This document shows, in pieces, positions 1-12,000 of a DNA stretch of 64,000 bases. Position numbers: made by a program. Within the stretch, counting starts at the first letter, position 1; every line of letters begins with the position of its first letter. The stretch is taken from positions 33,046,001 through 33,110,000 of the forward strand of contig NW_027361788.1 of the NCBI RefSeq assembly GCF_039654945.1, read 5' to 3'. Source of the DNA: Dendrobates tinctorius. Its lineage: Eukaryota.

Positions 1-3000
1 CACGCTAAAAGACTCTTTTTATTGTAAAAATAGTTTTTGCATCACTACATATTGAGAGCTATAATTTTTCCGTATTTTGACCCACCGAGTCATGTGAGGT
101 CTTATTTTTTGCGGGACGAGTTGACGTTTTTATTGGTACCATTTTCGGGCACGTCACATTTTTTGATCACTTTTTATTCCGATTTTTGGGACGCAGAATG
201 AACAAAAACCAGCGTTTCATGAATTTCTTTTGGGGGGGTGCGTTTACACCGTTCCGCGTGCGGTAAAATTGATAAAGCGGTTTTATTCTTCGGGTCAGTA
301 CGGTTACAGCGATACCTCATTTAGGTCTTTTTTTTATATTTTGTCGGTTTTATGCAATGAAAACTATTTTATATAAAAAATAATTATTTTTGCATCGCTT
401 TATTCTGCGAGCTATAACTTTTTTATTTTTTCACTGATGATGCTGTATGGCGGCTCGTTTTTGTGGGACAATAGGACATTTTCAGCGGTAAAATGGATAT
501 TTATATGCGTCTTTTTGATCGCGCGTTATGATAATAAATCATTATTTTTTGCTTCGTTTTTTATTTTTATTTTTCAAGGGGTTCGCTAAAGGAGTTAACT
601 AATGGGACGGTTTTATAGGGCAGGTCGTTATGGACGCGGCGATACTAAATATGTGTACTTTTATTGTTTTGTTTTTTTTTATTTCCAAAAAATTAATTTA
701 TTGGGCGAATATTTTTTTTTTCTAATTTATTTGGCGATTTTTTAAAATTATTTTAACACTTTTTGTTTTTTTTAACTTTATTACATTGTCCCAGGTGGGA
801 TCACTGTGACAGATCAGCGATCTTTCACAGGCAGTGCAGCAGGCTTCCTCGTGCCTGTGCTTTGCAGGCACTGAGGAAGCCGGCTCCCTGCAGGCCCCCG
901 AAGGTCCCCGTCGCCATCTTGGATTCTGGGGCCTGCAGGGAAGGAGCCCCCCGCAGCAGCGCTGCACATTTCGGTGTGCAAGGGGTTAACGTGTCGGGGG
1001 CGGTCCGTGACTGCCCCTGACACATTGTGCCTGGTGTCAGCTGTGATAATCAGCTGACACCCGGCCGCGATCAGCGGCGCTCACCACGACGTACTATCCC
1101 GTCCATGGGAATTAAGTCCCAGGGCACATGGACGGGATAGTACGTCACATGGCAGTAAGGGGTTAATATAAAGGAACAACCAATTATTACTTATATTAGT
1201 GATCTGCAACCTGGGGCCGACCAGCCATTTCAGAACTACCACTCCCAGCATGCCCTGGGACAGCTGGAGGGCCACAGGTGGCAGAACACGGACTTAAAAG
1301 GATCATTTCTCTGTAAATGCTGAACTGTAAGGTGATCATGTTACGGTCAGATTTATACCTTTCTGTAGGAAGTTGCTGGTTACCTGTAACGTCTCACGTG
1401 TGTGATATAAAGTTTATGGTGCAGAATCCCGGTTTCTGTCTTAGTTGGAACGTGTTGGCTTATTGGGGAGCTGGAGGGCTGTGATTGGAGGGCAAAGTCC
1501 AAAATCAAACATTAAAGAGGTTTCTGGGACGCTTGATCACTTCTCCTTAGGTAAGGCCATCAATTTCAGATCAATGAGGGTCCGACTCCCAGCACCCCCA
1601 ACAATCACCTGATTTAAAGGAGTTTTTCCCGTCATCATAAATGGATTTTGCCGGACAAGCACATTTGCAATTTACTGCTTATTTACATTTTCAGCCGTTC
1701 TTCAGATATCAACACTTTTTTTATTTACAGATCGTTGCCTTGGAGACCGACCACTGCTGCTGGATAGCAGAACATGCACAATGCTTACAAGCATTGCTTT
1801 CCTGCTGGCTGGGATCACTGGAGTGGGTCGTTACCTCCTTATCCCGCCACAGCTTCAGGTCAGTGCTTACAAGCTACATAGCAGTGGTGTGGTGGTCGGA
1901 GGGAACCGTACGCTCCAGTGTTGCTGGCCAGCTTCAAAATAACTCAGTAGAAACAAGCTTACAAACACAGTGCATGTTTTGTTGTCCAGCAGCAGCGGTC
2001 GGTCTCCTAGGAAAACTAATCAATATTAGTCCCGGAAAGCCGAAAATCACAAATAGTGCAATGAGGGGTGTATGGAGCGGGCACAGGGGGGCTCAGGAAG
2101 TAGAATGGCTCCATACATGGTGGGTATCAGCTGTGTTATACAGCCAGCACCTGCTTCCAACAGCAGCGACCAGTGCTAGCTCCGATTGCAGCTGTTATTG
2201 ACTAACAGTGGCACCTAAACTGGTACAGTGGTTTCAGCGCCCACCGCGCAATGCAGGACTACAGTTTTTTCCTTCAATGACCATCTCCCAAAAAATGTAC
2301 TAAAACAGCTATCAAACCATCTAATGCTCCCCAAAATGTTACAATAAAAACTATAGCTCACTTCGCAATAAACTCTTGCACAGCTCCATCAATGTGAAAA
2401 TTGAAAAAAAGTTGAGTCTGGCACCAAAAAAATAAAAAAAATATATATTTTTTTACAAAAGTCAGAATTTTTTTAAGCACTTCAATACAAAAAAATTAGA
2501 AAACCCTTAGGTTTGGTATTGCTATGATCTTACCGACCTGGAGAATCATAGTCCCAGATGTTTTTTAATGTACAATGAACAGTGTAAAAAAAAATGGCAG
2601 CACTTTTTTCCCACTTTTCATCCCGCATTGTATGGTAAGATGAATGGCGTCATTCATAACTACAACTCGACGCCCAATAAATAAGCCCTCATACAGCAAT
2701 GTCAGGTATATGTGAAGGGGAGGAAGAAACAAAACAAAACTGGCTGCGTCTCCGAGGGGTTGTGGTTATAGCTGCAGTACCAGTCACAGCCTATAGACAA
2801 GGGTGGCGCTGATTCTGGGGAAAGAAAAACTATCTGCCTCTATTTTTATTTTCGTAAAAGTAAAAATGTTCTGAAGATAAAAAAAAATGCTGAAGCAGCG
2901 TGTTTCTGGCTGCAAATGGAGCCGCTGTGCCAACCGTTCATTATGGTTTACATTAATTATGTGCCAATTAAAGCAGATCATAAATCTGGCCCGATTCCAT

Positions 3001-9000: not shown

Positions 9001-12000
9001 CTGATGCCATAGAAGAGTCCCTATTCAAGAGACTGCAGAACGTTCCAAGGATTAACCTTAAGGAAGCCCACAAGCTTCTGGACGTAAGCGATCTGCTTAT
9101 GGAGCTGGAACTCGCAAAAAGAGACCCTCGTCTGTCTGGATTATGCTACCTAGACACCGCCCATGGGGTGAACCCAATCATCTCAAAGCTGCCACATAGT
9201 CTGCAAGAGAAGTGGGCAGTATGCGTTTCCAGGTACAAAAGGTCACATGATGTCACCTTTCCTCCGTTCAATCAGTTCTCCAAGTTTGTCAACGAACAGG
9301 CCCAAATAAGGAACGACCCTAGCCTAGACTTCCTGGAGTCTAACACTACAGCTCCAGCAACACCGTCATCAAGGTATGAAAGCGTCTCACATGGACGCAA
9401 GGACTTGAGAAATAGTGTAAGTGTCAGAAAGACTAACCTGCCACCACCTGCGGTACCCTCCGATAACCAGTACACTATTCCGTCGAGAGATACGTCTTTC
9501 AATCGTGAGTGTCCCATTCACAAGAAACCACACTCGTTGAACAAATGTAGAGGCTTCAGGTCCAAAACCATGCAGGAGCGCAAGAAAATCCTCAGCGAAC
9601 TTGGGGTATGTTTCAAGTGCTGCACCTCATTAGAACACATGGCCAAGGACTGTAAATCTGCCATTAAGTGTGAAGAGTGTCATGGTGACAAACACCCATC
9701 AGCTTTGCATCCAACCTCAGCAACCAGCGATCCAGCAGTCGCAGTTACCTCTAGTCCGGCTACAAGCCATGACGGGGAGCCACAGAATAACGCCAATTCT
9801 ACCACGGCTGTCTCCTGCTCATGCTCAGAGGTATGTGGGGAGAGCCAAAGTGATAAATGCTGTGCCAGGATATGCCTAATCAGAGTTTATCCAGAAGGGC
9901 AACCAGAGAAGGCAGTAAAAATGTATGCCATCATTGATGATCAGAGCAATCGATCCCTAGCTGGACCTAAGTTCTTTGAAGCCTTTAGAATCAAGGGACC
10001 AGCAACGCCATATACTCTGAACACTTGCTCAGGCCGCATAGAGACCAGTGGCAGGAGGGCACAAGGTTTCATTGCTTCTCCTGTCAAGTATGGACTTCAC
10101 AATCCCTTGTGTGTATCATCTCTCCGGACACTGAACAGCATATGGTCCTGTCTGCTCTGCATTGAGGAAACGGAAGGGAGGAATCTCTCCCAGCCCCAAT
10201 CAGCTACACCTCCATTCGCCTCATGTGGGGACAGAACACACGGCATGTGCAGAAGGGATAAGGCTTACTAATTGGGGACACCATGCAGGGCGGTCATGCT
10301 GCTCTGTATAACAAGAGGCCTGTCATTCACCGAGAATCCCAGAAACCAGAGCTGGAGGTAGTTCTGCTCAATATTGCAGTAATCAGACAGTATAAAAATG
10401 CATGCATGAAAAAAAAACCTCATAGTTGCTTTAGACCAGAAACAGCGCCATCTCTGACCACAGGTCATGTCCGGTATTGCAGCTCAGCACCATTGCCGTA
10501 AATAGAGATCAGCTGCAATACCAGACACGACCTGTGAACAGCAGGGGCATTGTTTTTGGAAGAATAAAAATAACCATCTGTTTTTCAAGTTGCATAATAT
10601 CACGGTCCTGCTGCAATTTCACTTAAACGGATGCAGGTTTTCGTGGTCAATGGCTAAATAAATCCTTTTGGTACAAGATATTAAAAAGAATGACATTTTT
10701 CCATCTGTTCCTCTGCTTGTTGTCATTGAATAGGAACCATCATGGTTTATTGGTCACAGATATAATCGTGACAGATGAGTGACGTCACCACTGAGCAGGT
10801 ATAACGTGACAGATGAGTGACGTCACCACTGAGCAGGTATAACGTGACAGATGGGGTGACGTCACCACTGAGCAGACATAACAGGTGACAGATGGGTGAC
10901 GTGACCACTGAGTAGACATAACGGGTGACAGATGGGTGATGTCACCACCGAGCAAATAAAATGGTGACAGATGGGTGACGTCACCACTGAGCAGATATAG
11001 CGGGTGACATGACCACTGAGCAGACATAACAGGAAACAGATGGGGTGATGTCACCGCCGAGCAGATATAGCGGTGACGGATGGGTGATGTCACCACTGAG
11101 CAGATATAACGGTTGACAGATGGGTGACGTGACCACTGAGCAGACATAACGGGTGACAGATGGGTGATGTCACCACTGAGCAGATATAACGGTGACAGAT
11201 GGGGTGAAGTCGCCACTGAGCAGATGTAACGGTGACAGATGGGTTGATGTCACCACTGAGCAGATGTAACGGTGACAGATGGGTGACGTGACCACTGAGC
11301 AGACATAACGGGTGACAGATGGGGTGACGTCACCACTAAGCAGATATAACGGGTGACATCTCCAGTGAGCAGATACAACGGGTGACAGATGGGTGACGTC
11401 ACCACTGAACACATATAACGGGTGACAGATGGGGTGACATCAGCACTGAGCAGATATAATGGGTGTCAGATGGGTGATGTCACCACTGAACAGATATAAC
11501 GGCGACAGATGAGTGACGTCACCACTGAGCAGGTATAACGTGACAGATGGGGTGACGTCACCACTGAGCAGACATAACAAGTGACAGATGGGTGACGTGA
11601 CCACTGAGTAGACATAACGGGTGACAGATGGGTGATGTCACCACCGAGCAAATAAAATGGTGACAGATGGGTGACGTCACCACTGAGCTGATATAATGGG
11701 TGACATGACCACTGAGCAGACATAACAGGTAACAGATGGGGTGATGTCACCTCCGAGCATATGTAACGGTGACAGATGGGTGACGTCACCACTGAGCAGA
11801 TATAACGGTGACAGATGGGGTGATGTCACCACTGAGCAGATATAACAGGTGACAGATCGGTGACTTCACCACTGAGCAGACATAATGGGTGACAGATGGG
11901 GTGACATCAGCACTGAGCAGATATAACGGGTGTCAGATGGGTGATGTCACCACTGAGCAGACATAACGGGTGACAGATGGGGTGACGTCACCACTGAGCA

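What the first reader, a model, noticed from the sequence alone, without database searches (positions are those of the whole stretch)
1190..10755. Age paradox: arm identity steps from ~99% to ~96% at the BEL insertion
Approximate by-eye counts: outer arm segments differ by ~1% (about 9 in 800 nt sampled) and the inner segment 10244-10755 by ~4%. The nested Gypsy LTR pair differs by ~3% and the BEL LTR overlap by ~8% (150 nt). The right arm has the empty site, so both retrotransposons should be younger than the duplication, yet the outer arms look younger than them. Inference: recent arm-to-arm gene conversion or crossover stopped at the 7.2 kb insertion, or the arm is a mosaic of paralogs or alleles.
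Basis: partly seen in the sequence, partly recalled or inferred. Interest (0 to 1): 0.65.

Follow-up and report, generated by a model that had tools for sequence, protein, structure and literature searches.

The report
Unevenly homogenised inverted repeat in frog DNA
Two inverted copies of a 2.4 kb non-coding stretch in frog-like DNA are far more alike on one side of an old retrotransposon insertion than on the other, most simply because the copies kept correcting each other only where long unbroken similarity remained; this is a known kind of process.

Summary
The left arm (1190-3027 and 10244-10755) and the right arm (44914-42555) are inverted copies. The outer block differs at 15 of 1827 aligned sites (0.82%) and the inner block at 23 of 512 (4.5%) (Fisher p=2.4e-7; 0 of 20,000 permutations reach the observed maximum chi-square).

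The 7,206-nt insertion (3033-10238) is a pol-less BEL/Pao-like element with a 5-nt target duplication. It carries a nested, gutted Gypsy-like element (5137-8561). The right arm holds the clean empty site.

LTR differences are 13 of 154 for BEL and 23 of 877 for Gypsy. Both exceed the outer block (p=3e-8 and 4e-4), so the age paradox is real for the outer block only.

- A sharp step at the insertion and a smooth rise towards the satellite fit equally well (lnL -180.8 versus -181.5 or -179.9).
- A crossover alone cannot homogenise the arms.
- The BEL gag frames are completely open, which fits poorly with an old BEL.

Best reading (about 0.5): arm-to-arm gene conversion confined to the long outer homology block. 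The process is ordinary and the locus is a new instance of it. No other genome copies could be examined.

The parts
1190..3027 (+). Left arm, outer block. Non-coding; 0.82% different from the right arm.
   Evidence: 15 of 1827 sites differ, spread over the whole block. No Pfam family above cut-off in 36 frames scanned from the arms and their flanks. No Atlas hit for the 186-aa ORF at 1641-2198.
3028..3032 (+). 5' copy of the 5-nt target-site duplication (CACAG). It differs by one CpG-type transition from the 3' copy and from the empty site.
   Evidence: junction sequences read directly.
3033..10238 (+). BEL/Pao-like LTR retrotransposon remnant, 7,206 nt, TG...CA ends. It holds gag only; protease, RT, RNase H and integrase are absent.
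3033..3566 (+). BEL 5' LTR (534 nt). Only its last 156 nt have a partner at the 3' end.
   Evidence: 3411-3566 = 10085-10238, 90.4%; no other copy in the window.
4495..4816 (+). 27-nt tandem repeat, 11.9 copies, upstream of the gag homology. It keeps a long frame open.
4848..10089 (+). BEL gag, given as one broken gene. It is interrupted once by the nested element and cut short once by a deletion. The pieces that remain contain 0 stops and 0 frameshifts.
   Evidence: the piece before the nested element matches P0001 residues 1-98 (78% identity); the piece after it matches P0001 residues 126-617 (86%, 429 of 500). Pfam DUF1759 scores 19.8-20 bits, below the 25.4 cut-off.
5132..5136 (+). 5' target-site duplication of the nested element (AGTTC).
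5137..8561 (+). Nested Gypsy-like LTR element remnant, 3,425 nt. LTRs are 5137-6323 (with 296 extra nt at 5409-5704) and 7681-8561. The interior is only about 1.36 kb.
   Evidence: LTR pair: 23 of 877 sites differ.
6832..7677 (+). Open frame holding the only recognisable pol remnant of the nested element, an integrase zinc-binding domain.
   Evidence: Integrase_H2C2 E=6.9e-15, zf-H2C2 E=5e-6; 67% identity over 35% of the frame to a Ranitomeya imitator protein named 'Gypsy retrotransposon integrase-like', which carries RVT_1, RT_RNaseH, rve, chromo and Ty3-capsid domains.
8562..8566 (+). 3' target-site duplication of the nested element (AGTTC).
10085..10238 (+). Remnant of the BEL 3' LTR (last 154 nt).
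   Evidence: 13 of 154 sites plus 1 indel differ from the 5' LTR.
10239..10243 (+). 3' copy of the BEL target-site duplication (CACGG).
10244..10755 (+). Left arm, inner block. A 512-nt island, 4.5% different from the right arm.
   Evidence: The longest perfect run is 106 nt, against 285 nt in the outer block.
10757..13487 (+). Left 40-nt satellite array (70.6 copies).
   Evidence: Contains a recent internal duplication, 10808-11107 = 11504-11803 at 96%.
41173..42202 (-). Right 40-nt satellite array (26.3 copies), the same monomer in inverted orientation.
   Evidence: No register between the two arrays exceeds 88.6% identity.
42203..42554 (.). Insert of about 350 nt present in the right arm only, between arm and satellite, with a 200-nt hairpin (42328-42525). 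MITE-like.
42555..44914 (-). Right arm, uninterrupted. The single target pentamer CACGG lies at 43077-43081 (the empty site).

Best explanation
An old inverted duplication produced two arms, each made of about 2.36 kb of non-coding sequence followed by a 40-nt satellite, around a spacer of about 28 kb. A BEL/Pao-like retrotransposon then entered the left arm. Later it received a nested Gypsy-like element and lost its pol region and most of its 3' LTR.

Non-reciprocal exchange between the arms (intrachromosomal gene conversion, as in sex-chromosome palindromes) kept erasing differences in the 1.8 kb outer block, which still offers long uninterrupted homology. That continued until roughly 0.8% divergence ago.

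The 512-nt inner block is boxed in by non-homology on both sides. On one side is the 7.2 kb insertion in the left arm. On the other are a ~350-nt insert in the right arm and length-variable satellites. It largely dropped out of this exchange and kept accumulating differences, which in turn made exchange there still less likely.

**Shown:** the anatomy, the empty site, the nesting order and the unequal divergences.
**Inferred:** that conversion is the cause, its direction, and that the insertion is what limits it.
For: - **Outer block younger than the elements it hosts.** It differs at 15 of 1827 sites. The nested Gypsy LTR pair differs at 23 of 877 (p=3.7e-4) and the BEL LTR overlap at 13 of 154 (p=3.1e-8). 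Both elements must postdate the arm, because the right arm has the clean single-copy target site.
- **Order holds without CpG sites.** p=8.7e-4 and 1.3e-7.
- **Inner block is in the right order.** 4.5% lies between Gypsy (2.6%) and BEL (8.4%). Its last 112 nt (10 of 112) match the BEL value (p=1.0).
- **Satellite arrays are far from the 99% of the outer block.** They are 2.73 kb and 1.03 kb long, and the best register gives 88.6% identity.
- **Change point.** The maximum-likelihood point lies 17 nt from the insertion site.
- **Homology available.** Perfect-match runs reach 285 nt in the outer block but only 106 nt in the island.
- **No editing signature.** LTR changes are balanced in both directions (G/A 8, C/T 12).
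- **Precedent.** Arm-to-arm conversion that holds arms above 99% identity is documented for primate sex-chromosome palindromes (abstract of PMC8981503 in the listing; passages of PMC8327919).
Against: - A gradient rising towards the satellite fits as well as a step at the insertion (lnL -181.5 or -179.9 versus -180.8), so the insertion's role as a barrier is not shown.
- The BEL gag frames are fully open. With the stop-target fraction of those frames and the indel share seen here, the larger piece alone would stay open with P=0.0004-0.0065 at the BEL LTR age and 0.02-0.08 at its lower bound. An old BEL is therefore uncomfortable.
- Indel density is no lower in the outer block than in the inner one (p=0.69). 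However, 3 of the 5 outer indels lie in homopolymer runs.
- There are only two copies and no outgroup. Direction and tracts cannot be seen.
- LTR clocks are known to be noisy. About a quarter of nested plant elements look older than their hosts (abstract of PMC7251063).
Confidence: 0.5

Rival explanations
1. Mosaic by exchange with third copies. The arm sequence, or the BEL sequence, belongs to a multi-copy family. One arm's outer block, or the left-hand stretch 10085-10755, was overwritten from a paralogous copy elsewhere in the genome. The two arms therefore do not share a single history.
For: - The single contiguous left-hand stretch 10085-10755 (3' LTR remnant, target duplication and inner block) is diverged from both of its partners.
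- The open gag frames would be explained if BEL internal sequence had been refreshed from other copies.
- Poison-frog genomes are dominated by high-copy repeats of low divergence (abstract of PMC6278860 in the listing).
Against: - No third copy of the arm, the BEL LTR or the Gypsy LTR exists in the 64 kb window.
- The right arm is colinear across the target site.
- This reading needs more events than arm-to-arm conversion does.
- It could not be tested, because no eukaryotic genome collection was on hand.
Confidence: 0.15
2. No conversion. The duplication is young (about 0.8%). Substitution is locally raised towards the satellite and the centre of the repeat and in the LTRs, so the LTR clocks and the inner block overstate age.
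For: - The gradient model fits as well as the step.
- The outer half-blocks trend the same way: 5 of 900 then 10 of 927 (p=0.30).
- The open gag frames fit a young BEL (P=0.49-0.62 for the larger piece).
- Inner arms and spacers of primate X palindromes are zones of local instability (passages of PMC8327919).
Against: - It needs 3-fold (Gypsy) to 10-fold (BEL) faster substitution with no CpG excess. CpG transitions are 0 of 23 in the inner block, 5 of 23 in the Gypsy LTRs and 2 of 13 in the BEL LTRs.
- There is no strand-biased editing pattern.
- The heavy decay of both elements argues for time: pol lost, a nested insertion, 296 extra nt in one LTR, and a diverged target duplication.
- Repair-linked mutagenesis is, from general knowledge, orders of magnitude too weak to give 5%.
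Confidence: 0.15
3. Assembly or polishing artefact. Reads that map to both arms made the outer block look more alike than it is.
For: Large repeat-rich frog genomes are hard to assemble (abstract of PMC12208295 in the listing). 3 of the 5 outer indels lie in homopolymer runs.
Against: - The 15 outer differences are spread across the whole block, including its middle. They are not confined to the uniquely anchored edges.
- Homology ends sharply at both outer ends with unrelated flanks, so the arms are not misjoined haplotypes.
- The structure, including both target duplications, is internally coherent.
Confidence: 0.1

Closest known systems
Arm-to-arm gene conversion in large palindromes of primate X and Y chromosomes
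   Same: Inverted arms around a spacer. The arms are more alike than their age allows. Disturbance is greater towards the centre and spacer (PMC8327919 passages; PMC8981503 and PMC8600007 abstracts in the listing).
   Different: - The arms here are tiny (2.4 kb against 8-140 kb) and non-coding.
- They are far less alike (99.2% against 99.9% or more).
- They end in satellite arrays.
- One arm is split by a 7.2 kb retrotransposon nest.
- No cross-species evidence is available here.
Age inversions among nested LTR retrotransposons attributed to gene conversion (Jedlicka et al. 2020, PMC7251063)
   Same: A nesting order that contradicts divergence-based ages, explained by conversion (abstract).
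   Different: There the conversion is between the two LTRs of one element, in plants. Here the two LTR pairs are in the expected order (Gypsy 2.6% below BEL 8.4%), and it is the host repeat that looks too young.
Actively maintained long inverted repeats in Caenorhabditis (PMC1803023)
   Same: Autosomal-scale inverted repeats kept similar by exchange (title and start of the abstract only, in the listing).
   Different: Those arms carry gene pairs. No gene was found in these arms.
Foldback-type or long-TIR transposons with tandem sub-repeats in the arms
   Same: Inverted arms that contain tandem repeats.
   Different: - No target-site duplication flanks the 43.7 kb structure.
- The tandem repeats lie on the inner side, not at the termini.
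- The spacer is a patchwork of unrelated elements.
- The comparison itself is recalled, not drawn from a tool.

Membership tests
Inverted repeat under arm-to-arm gene conversion (concerted evolution) | Two arms in inverted orientation with a spacer | tested here: met
   1190-3030 = 44914-43079 and 10238-10761 = 43082-42555. The spacer between the two satellite arrays is 13488-41172.
Inverted repeat under arm-to-arm gene conversion (concerted evolution) | Arms more alike than an independent clock for their age allows | tested here: met
   Met for the outer block only: 15 of 1827 against 23 of 877 for Gypsy LTRs (p=3.7e-4) and 13 of 154 for BEL LTRs (p=3.1e-8). Not met for the inner block (p=0.067 and 0.064).
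Inverted repeat under arm-to-arm gene conversion (concerted evolution) | Discrete converted tract with a definable end | tested here: inconclusive
   Step at the insertion, lnL -180.8. Gradient, lnL -181.5 or -179.9. The 2-lnL support for the change point spans about 630 nt.
Inverted repeat under arm-to-arm gene conversion (concerted evolution) | Arms group by species rather than by arm in cross-species comparison | not testable with these tools
   No eukaryotic genome collection was available.
BEL/Pao LTR retrotransposon | LTRs with TG...CA ends and a short target-site duplication | tested here: met
   The 5-nt duplication has one mismatch. The 3' LTR is reduced to 154 nt.
BEL/Pao LTR retrotransposon | Gag of the DUF1759 type | tested here: inconclusive
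   - Pfam DUF1759 scores only 19.8-20 bits against a cut-off of 25.4.
- 124 relatives have E<=1e-3. The best is 86% identical (Dendrobates tinctorius), one is named 'Gag protein', and 4 of the 120 listed carry PF03564.
- That DUF1759 marks Pao/BEL gag is recalled, not taken from a tool.
BEL/Pao LTR retrotransposon | Pol with Pao-type protease, RT, RNase H and integrase | tested here: not met
   None of the 40 frames of 60 aa or more in 3033-10238 matches any of these families. The region is absent, so family-level placement rests on gag alone.
Ty3/Gypsy LTR retrotransposon | LTR pair with a target-site duplication | tested here: met
   LTRs 5137-6323 and 7681-8561. AGTTC lies on both sides.
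Ty3/Gypsy LTR retrotransposon | Pol in the order RT, RNase H, integrase (with or without a chromodomain) | tested here: inconclusive
   Only an Integrase_H2C2 fragment survives. Its nearest long relative has the full Gypsy-type domain set, but covers only 35% of the frame at 67% identity. Only 2 proteins passed E<=1e-3 out of 4219 candidates.
Single transposon bounded by long terminal inverted repeats (foldback-like) | Target-site duplication flanking the outer ends of the two arms | tested here: not met
   the flanks outside 1190 and 44914 share no direct repeat.

The most novel reading that the evidence does not exclude
A retrotransposon nest has split a small, non-genic inverted repeat into a compartment that still exchanges sequence between arms and an island that no longer does. 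One locus then holds four independent clocks: the converted block, the unconverted island and two nested LTR pairs. It would give a direct natural measure of how much unbroken homology arm-to-arm conversion needs in a giant amphibian genome. In the same reading, the fully open BEL gag frame (8721-10271), which runs out of the element into the arm, is kept by constraint rather than luck.
Probability: 0.12. Interest if true: 0.5.

Novelty: new member of a known kind. Interest (0 to 1): 0.3.

Why it matters
If conversion is the cause, this small locus shows that concerted evolution of inverted repeats is not confined to large gene-bearing sex-chromosome palindromes. It would also act on kilobase-scale junk repeats in a transposon-swamped frog genome. 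It would further show that transposon insertions can set the limits of such exchange.

In practice it is a warning for dating. At this locus, divergence between duplicated arms, LTR-LTR divergence and reading-frame intactness give ages that differ up to tenfold. No single one of them can be trusted alone.

Tried and rejected
- **Whole 43.7 kb structure as one transposon with long inverted ends.** Rejected, because no flanking target duplication exists.
- **Arms as misjoined haplotypes.** Rejected, because homology ends sharply at unrelated flanks.
- **CpG decay as the cause of the higher LTR and inner-arm divergence.** Rejected, because the contrasts hold without CpG sites and the inner block has 0 CpG transitions among 23 differences.
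- **Deaminase-type editing of the LTRs.** Rejected, because the changes are balanced in both directions.
- **Satellite arrays as a clock.** Abandoned, because no register stands out (88.6% against 87-88% for shifted registers). The arrays have turned over internally.
- **Coding content of the arms.** Nothing found: 0 of 36 frames above a Pfam cut-off and no usable Atlas hit.
- **RNA genes.** 0 Rfam matches and 0 tRNAs in the window.
- **GENECONV-type tests with further copies.** Not possible, because no third copy exists in the window and no eukaryotic genome collection was available. The single scan of genome contigs (bacteria and archaea) was not spent because it cannot hold frog DNA.
- **Literature on tract ends.** The search on conversion-tract ends at heterologies returned nothing I read or used.
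- **Spliced gene models.** None was built or joined. The exon-like frames outside the arms were scanned singly.

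
Full report
**Source and scope**

The window has no N. Three results point to a dendrobatid poison frog or a close relative:
- Its best protein match is a Dendrobates tinctorius protein at 86% identity, followed by proteins of Ranitomeya, Anomaloglossus and other frogs.
- It carries Sleeping-Beauty-type Tc1 transposase domains.
- It carries an interstitial TTAGGG-type array.

I do not take it for human. The virus-like stretch named by the operators is the nest of two LTR retrotransposon remnants. 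It is described as it stands.

**Anatomy**

A self-comparison of the window shows an inverted repeat.
- Left 1190-3030 matches right 44914-43079: 98.48%, 15 mismatches, 5 gaps in 1845 columns.
- Left 10238-10761 matches right 43082-42555: 94.70%, 24 mismatches, 1 gap in 528 columns.

On the inner side each arm runs into the same 40-nt satellite. The left array is 10757-13487 (70.6 copies) and the right array is 41173-42202 (26.3 copies). The right arm alone has an extra ~350 nt between arm and satellite (42203-42554), with a 200-nt hairpin.

Homology stops sharply at the outer ends. No direct repeat flanks the 43.7 kb structure, so it is not a single transposon with inverted ends, and the arms are not misjoined haplotypes.

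The arms hold no recognisable gene. 0 of 36 frames scanned from the arms and their flanks reach a Pfam cut-off, the 186-aa ORF has no usable Atlas hit, and the window has 0 Rfam and 0 tRNA matches.

**The insertion**

The left arm is interrupted by 3033-10238 (7,206 nt). The insertion begins TG and ends CA. It is flanked by CACAG (3028-3032) and CACGG (10239-10243). The right arm reads through a single CACGG (43077-43081). The one mismatch in the duplication is a CpG-type transition.

The outer element has these features:
- A 534-nt 5' LTR (3033-3566).
- At the 3' end, only the last 154 nt of an LTR (10085-10238).
- A gag homologous to the 642-aa frog protein P0001. The piece upstream of the nested element matches residues 1-98. 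The piece downstream matches residues 126-617 at 86% identity.

Gag is broken once by an insertion and truncated once by a deletion that also removed pol and most of the 3' LTR. Within what remains there are 0 stops and 0 frameshifts.

Of 40 frames of 60 aa or more in the insertion, none matches a protease, RT, RNase H or integrase core. The label BEL/Pao rests on three things:
- A sub-threshold DUF1759 match (19.8-20 bits against a cut-off of 25.4).
- Relatives that carry PF03564, 4 of the 120 listed.
- My recollection that this domain marks Pao/BEL gag.

The nested element (5137-8561) has a perfect AGTTC duplication on both sides. Its LTRs are 5137-6323 and 7681-8561, and the 5' LTR has 296 extra nt. 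Its interior is about 1.36 kb, and the only recognisable domain there is an integrase zinc-binding fragment. The best long relative is a Ranitomeya protein named Gypsy integrase-like with a full Gypsy-type domain set. It covers only 35% of the frame, and only 2 proteins passed the threshold among 4219 candidates. 'Gypsy-like' is reasonable but not proven.

**The numbers**

Each piece was aligned apart.

| Comparison | Differences | Share | Note |
|---|---|---|---|
| Outer arm block | 15 of 1827 | 0.82% | CI 0.46-1.35% |
| Inner arm block | 23 of 512 | 4.49% | CI 2.9-6.7% |
| BEL LTR overlap | 13 of 154, plus 1 indel | 8.4% | CI 4.6-14% |
| Gypsy LTRs, first piece | 11 of 272 | 4.0% | |
| Gypsy LTRs, second piece | 12 of 605 | 2.0% | |
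| Gypsy LTRs, both pieces | 23 of 877 | 2.6% | the two pieces do not differ, p=0.11 |

Contrasts:

| Contrast | Fisher p |
|---|---|
| Outer vs inner | 2.4e-7 |
| Outer vs Gypsy | 3.7e-4 |
| Outer vs BEL | 3.1e-8 |
| Inner vs BEL | 0.067 |
| Inner vs Gypsy | 0.064 |
| Gypsy vs BEL | 0.0011 |

Leaving out CpG sites changes nothing of substance (1.4e-8, 8.7e-4, 1.3e-7). The inner block has 0 CpG transitions among its 23 differences. The LTR changes show no strand-biased editing pattern.

The paradox is therefore real, but it concerns the outer block only. The inner block, the BEL pair and the Gypsy pair stand in an order that the nesting allows.

**Where the change lies**

Differences were mapped onto the uninterrupted right arm.
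- The maximum chi-square is 54.3, and 0 of 20,000 permutations reach it.
- That maximum falls in the last ~120 nt beside the satellite.
- The two-rate likelihood peaks 17 nt inside the insertion site.
- Its 2-lnL support runs from about 200 nt outside the site to about 430 nt inside it.

Model fits:

| Model | lnL |
|---|---|
| Step fixed at the insertion | -180.8 |
| Logit-linear gradient | -181.5 |
| Quadratic gradient | -179.9 |
| Single rate | -194.2 |

Inside the island the differences are 5 in the first 60 columns, 8 in the next 340 and 10 in the last 112. The middle still exceeds the outer block (p=0.019), and the last 112 nt equal the BEL value (p=1.0). The outer block itself rises slightly inwards, from 5 of 900 to 10 of 927 (p=0.30).

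The two satellite arrays share at most 88.6% identity in any register, and no register stands out. They show that the inner side is not 99% alike, but they cannot serve as a clock.

**Explanation**

A crossover between inverted arms flips the spacer and swaps segments without making the arms more alike. Only non-reciprocal exchange can lower divergence.

The simplest history is as follows:
1. An old inverted duplication.
2. An early BEL insertion in the left arm.
3. A later Gypsy insertion into BEL.
4. Arm-to-arm gene conversion that went on in the 1.8 kb outer block until about 0.8% divergence ago.

The 512-nt island is bounded by the 7.2 kb nest on one arm and by the ~350-nt insert and unequal arrays on the other, and it largely dropped out of the exchange. 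The outer block still offers perfect runs of up to 285 nt, the island at most 106 nt.

Conversion that keeps arms above 99% identical is established for primate sex-chromosome palindromes. Their inner arms and spacers are zones of local instability (PMC8327919, passages read; PMC8981503 and PMC8600007, abstracts in the listing). I give this reading about 0.5.

**What speaks against it, and the rivals**

The gag frames are entirely open. I used the share of possible substitutions that would create a stop in those frames as they stand (0.036-0.046) and an indel share of 0.05-0.10 per substitution. The probability that the larger piece alone stays open is then:

| Assumed age | P(frame stays open) |
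|---|---|
| Half the BEL LTR distance | 0.0004-0.0065 |
| Its lower confidence bound | 0.02-0.08 |
| Half the Gypsy LTR distance | 0.10-0.22 |
| Half the outer-arm distance | 0.49-0.62 |

An old BEL is thus awkward. It requires luck, constraint on the frame, or refreshment of BEL sequence from other copies.

It is also notable that one contiguous left-hand stretch (10085-10755) is the diverged partner in both the LTR comparison and the arm comparison.

These points keep three rivals alive:
- **Exchange with third copies of a repeat family (0.15).** No third copy is in the window, and it was untestable beyond the window.
- **A young duplication with locally raised substitution and unreliable LTR clocks (0.15).** The gradient fit and the open gag support it. 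It needs 3- to 10-fold rate excess without a CpG or editing signature, and the heavy structural decay of both elements argues against it.
- **An assembly or polishing artefact (0.1).** The 15 outer differences are spread over the whole block, which argues against it.

LTR-based ages are known to misbehave. About a quarter of nested plant elements look older than their hosts (abstract of PMC7251063).

**Comparison and novelty**

The locus works like a miniature palindrome under concerted evolution. Two membership features are met: inverted arms with a spacer, and an outer block more alike than an independent clock allows. A discrete tract end is inconclusive. Cross-species grouping could not be tested.

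It differs from the classic cases in scale (2.4 kb), in lacking genes, in its modest identity (99.2%), in its satellite-bearing inner ends and in being split by a transposon nest. I rate it a new member of a known kind, with interest 0.3.

**What stayed unchecked**
- Other genomic copies, other individuals and related species.
- Raw reads.
- Supplementary files of the cited papers.
- Of the papers named, I read the abstract and outline of PMC7251063, selected passages of PMC8327919, and only listing abstracts for the others.

Noticed in passing
window 10757-13487 and 41173-42202: A 40-nt satellite whose monomer holds the 12-nt palindrome GGTGACGTCACC. It has 70.6 copies on the left and 26.3 on the right. 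The left array contains a recent 696-nt-offset duplication (10808-11107 = 11504-11803, 96%).
   Followed up: partly
window 42203-42554: An insert of about 350 nt found only in the right arm, with a 200-nt hairpin (42328-42525, 91% self-complementary). It is MITE-like and has no other copy in the window.
   Followed up: partly
window 26532-28142 and 37172-38781: Two Tc1/Sleeping-Beauty-type transposon copies in inverted orientation inside the spacer, with 15 mismatches in 1614 columns. One has a whole 339-aa transposase frame (HTH_SB, HTH_Tnp_Tc3_2, DDE_3). The other has its frame in at least two pieces.
   Followed up: partly
window 20618-23737 (minus strand): A LINE-like remnant. An Exo_endo_phos_2 endonuclease and RVT_1 reverse transcriptase are spread over several open-frame pieces.
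   Followed up: no
window 8721-10271: A 516-aa ATG-initiated frame made of BEL gag. It reads on through the LTR remnant and ends 33 nt inside the arm. It is unexpectedly intact for the age that the LTR overlap implies.
   Followed up: partly
window 49476-50087 (minus strand) and 57116-57469 (plus strand): Exon-like frames outside the repeat. One has a Glyco_transf_25 match (E about 1e-7) and one has a SCAN domain (E=5e-13).
   Followed up: no
window 62700-63014; 59431-60263 and 63061-64000: An interstitial TTAGGG-type hexamer array (55 copies, 75% matches) beside a satellite with a period of 389-399 nt.
   Followed up: no
window 4495-4816: A 27-nt tandem repeat (11.9 copies, 94% matches) inside the BEL element, upstream of the gag homology. 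It encodes an alanine/glutamate/lysine-rich repeat in the open frame.
   Followed up: no
window 5409-5704: 296 nt present only in the 5' LTR of the nested Gypsy-like element. The stretch is internally palindromic, and 3 nt are shared at the junction in the other LTR. Whether it is an insertion or a deletion is unresolved.
   Followed up: partly
window 17259-17476 and 14313-14469: Two near-perfect hairpins in the spacer. One has 105-nt arms at 95% complementarity with an 8-nt loop. The other has 64-nt arms at 98% with a 29-nt loop.
   Followed up: no
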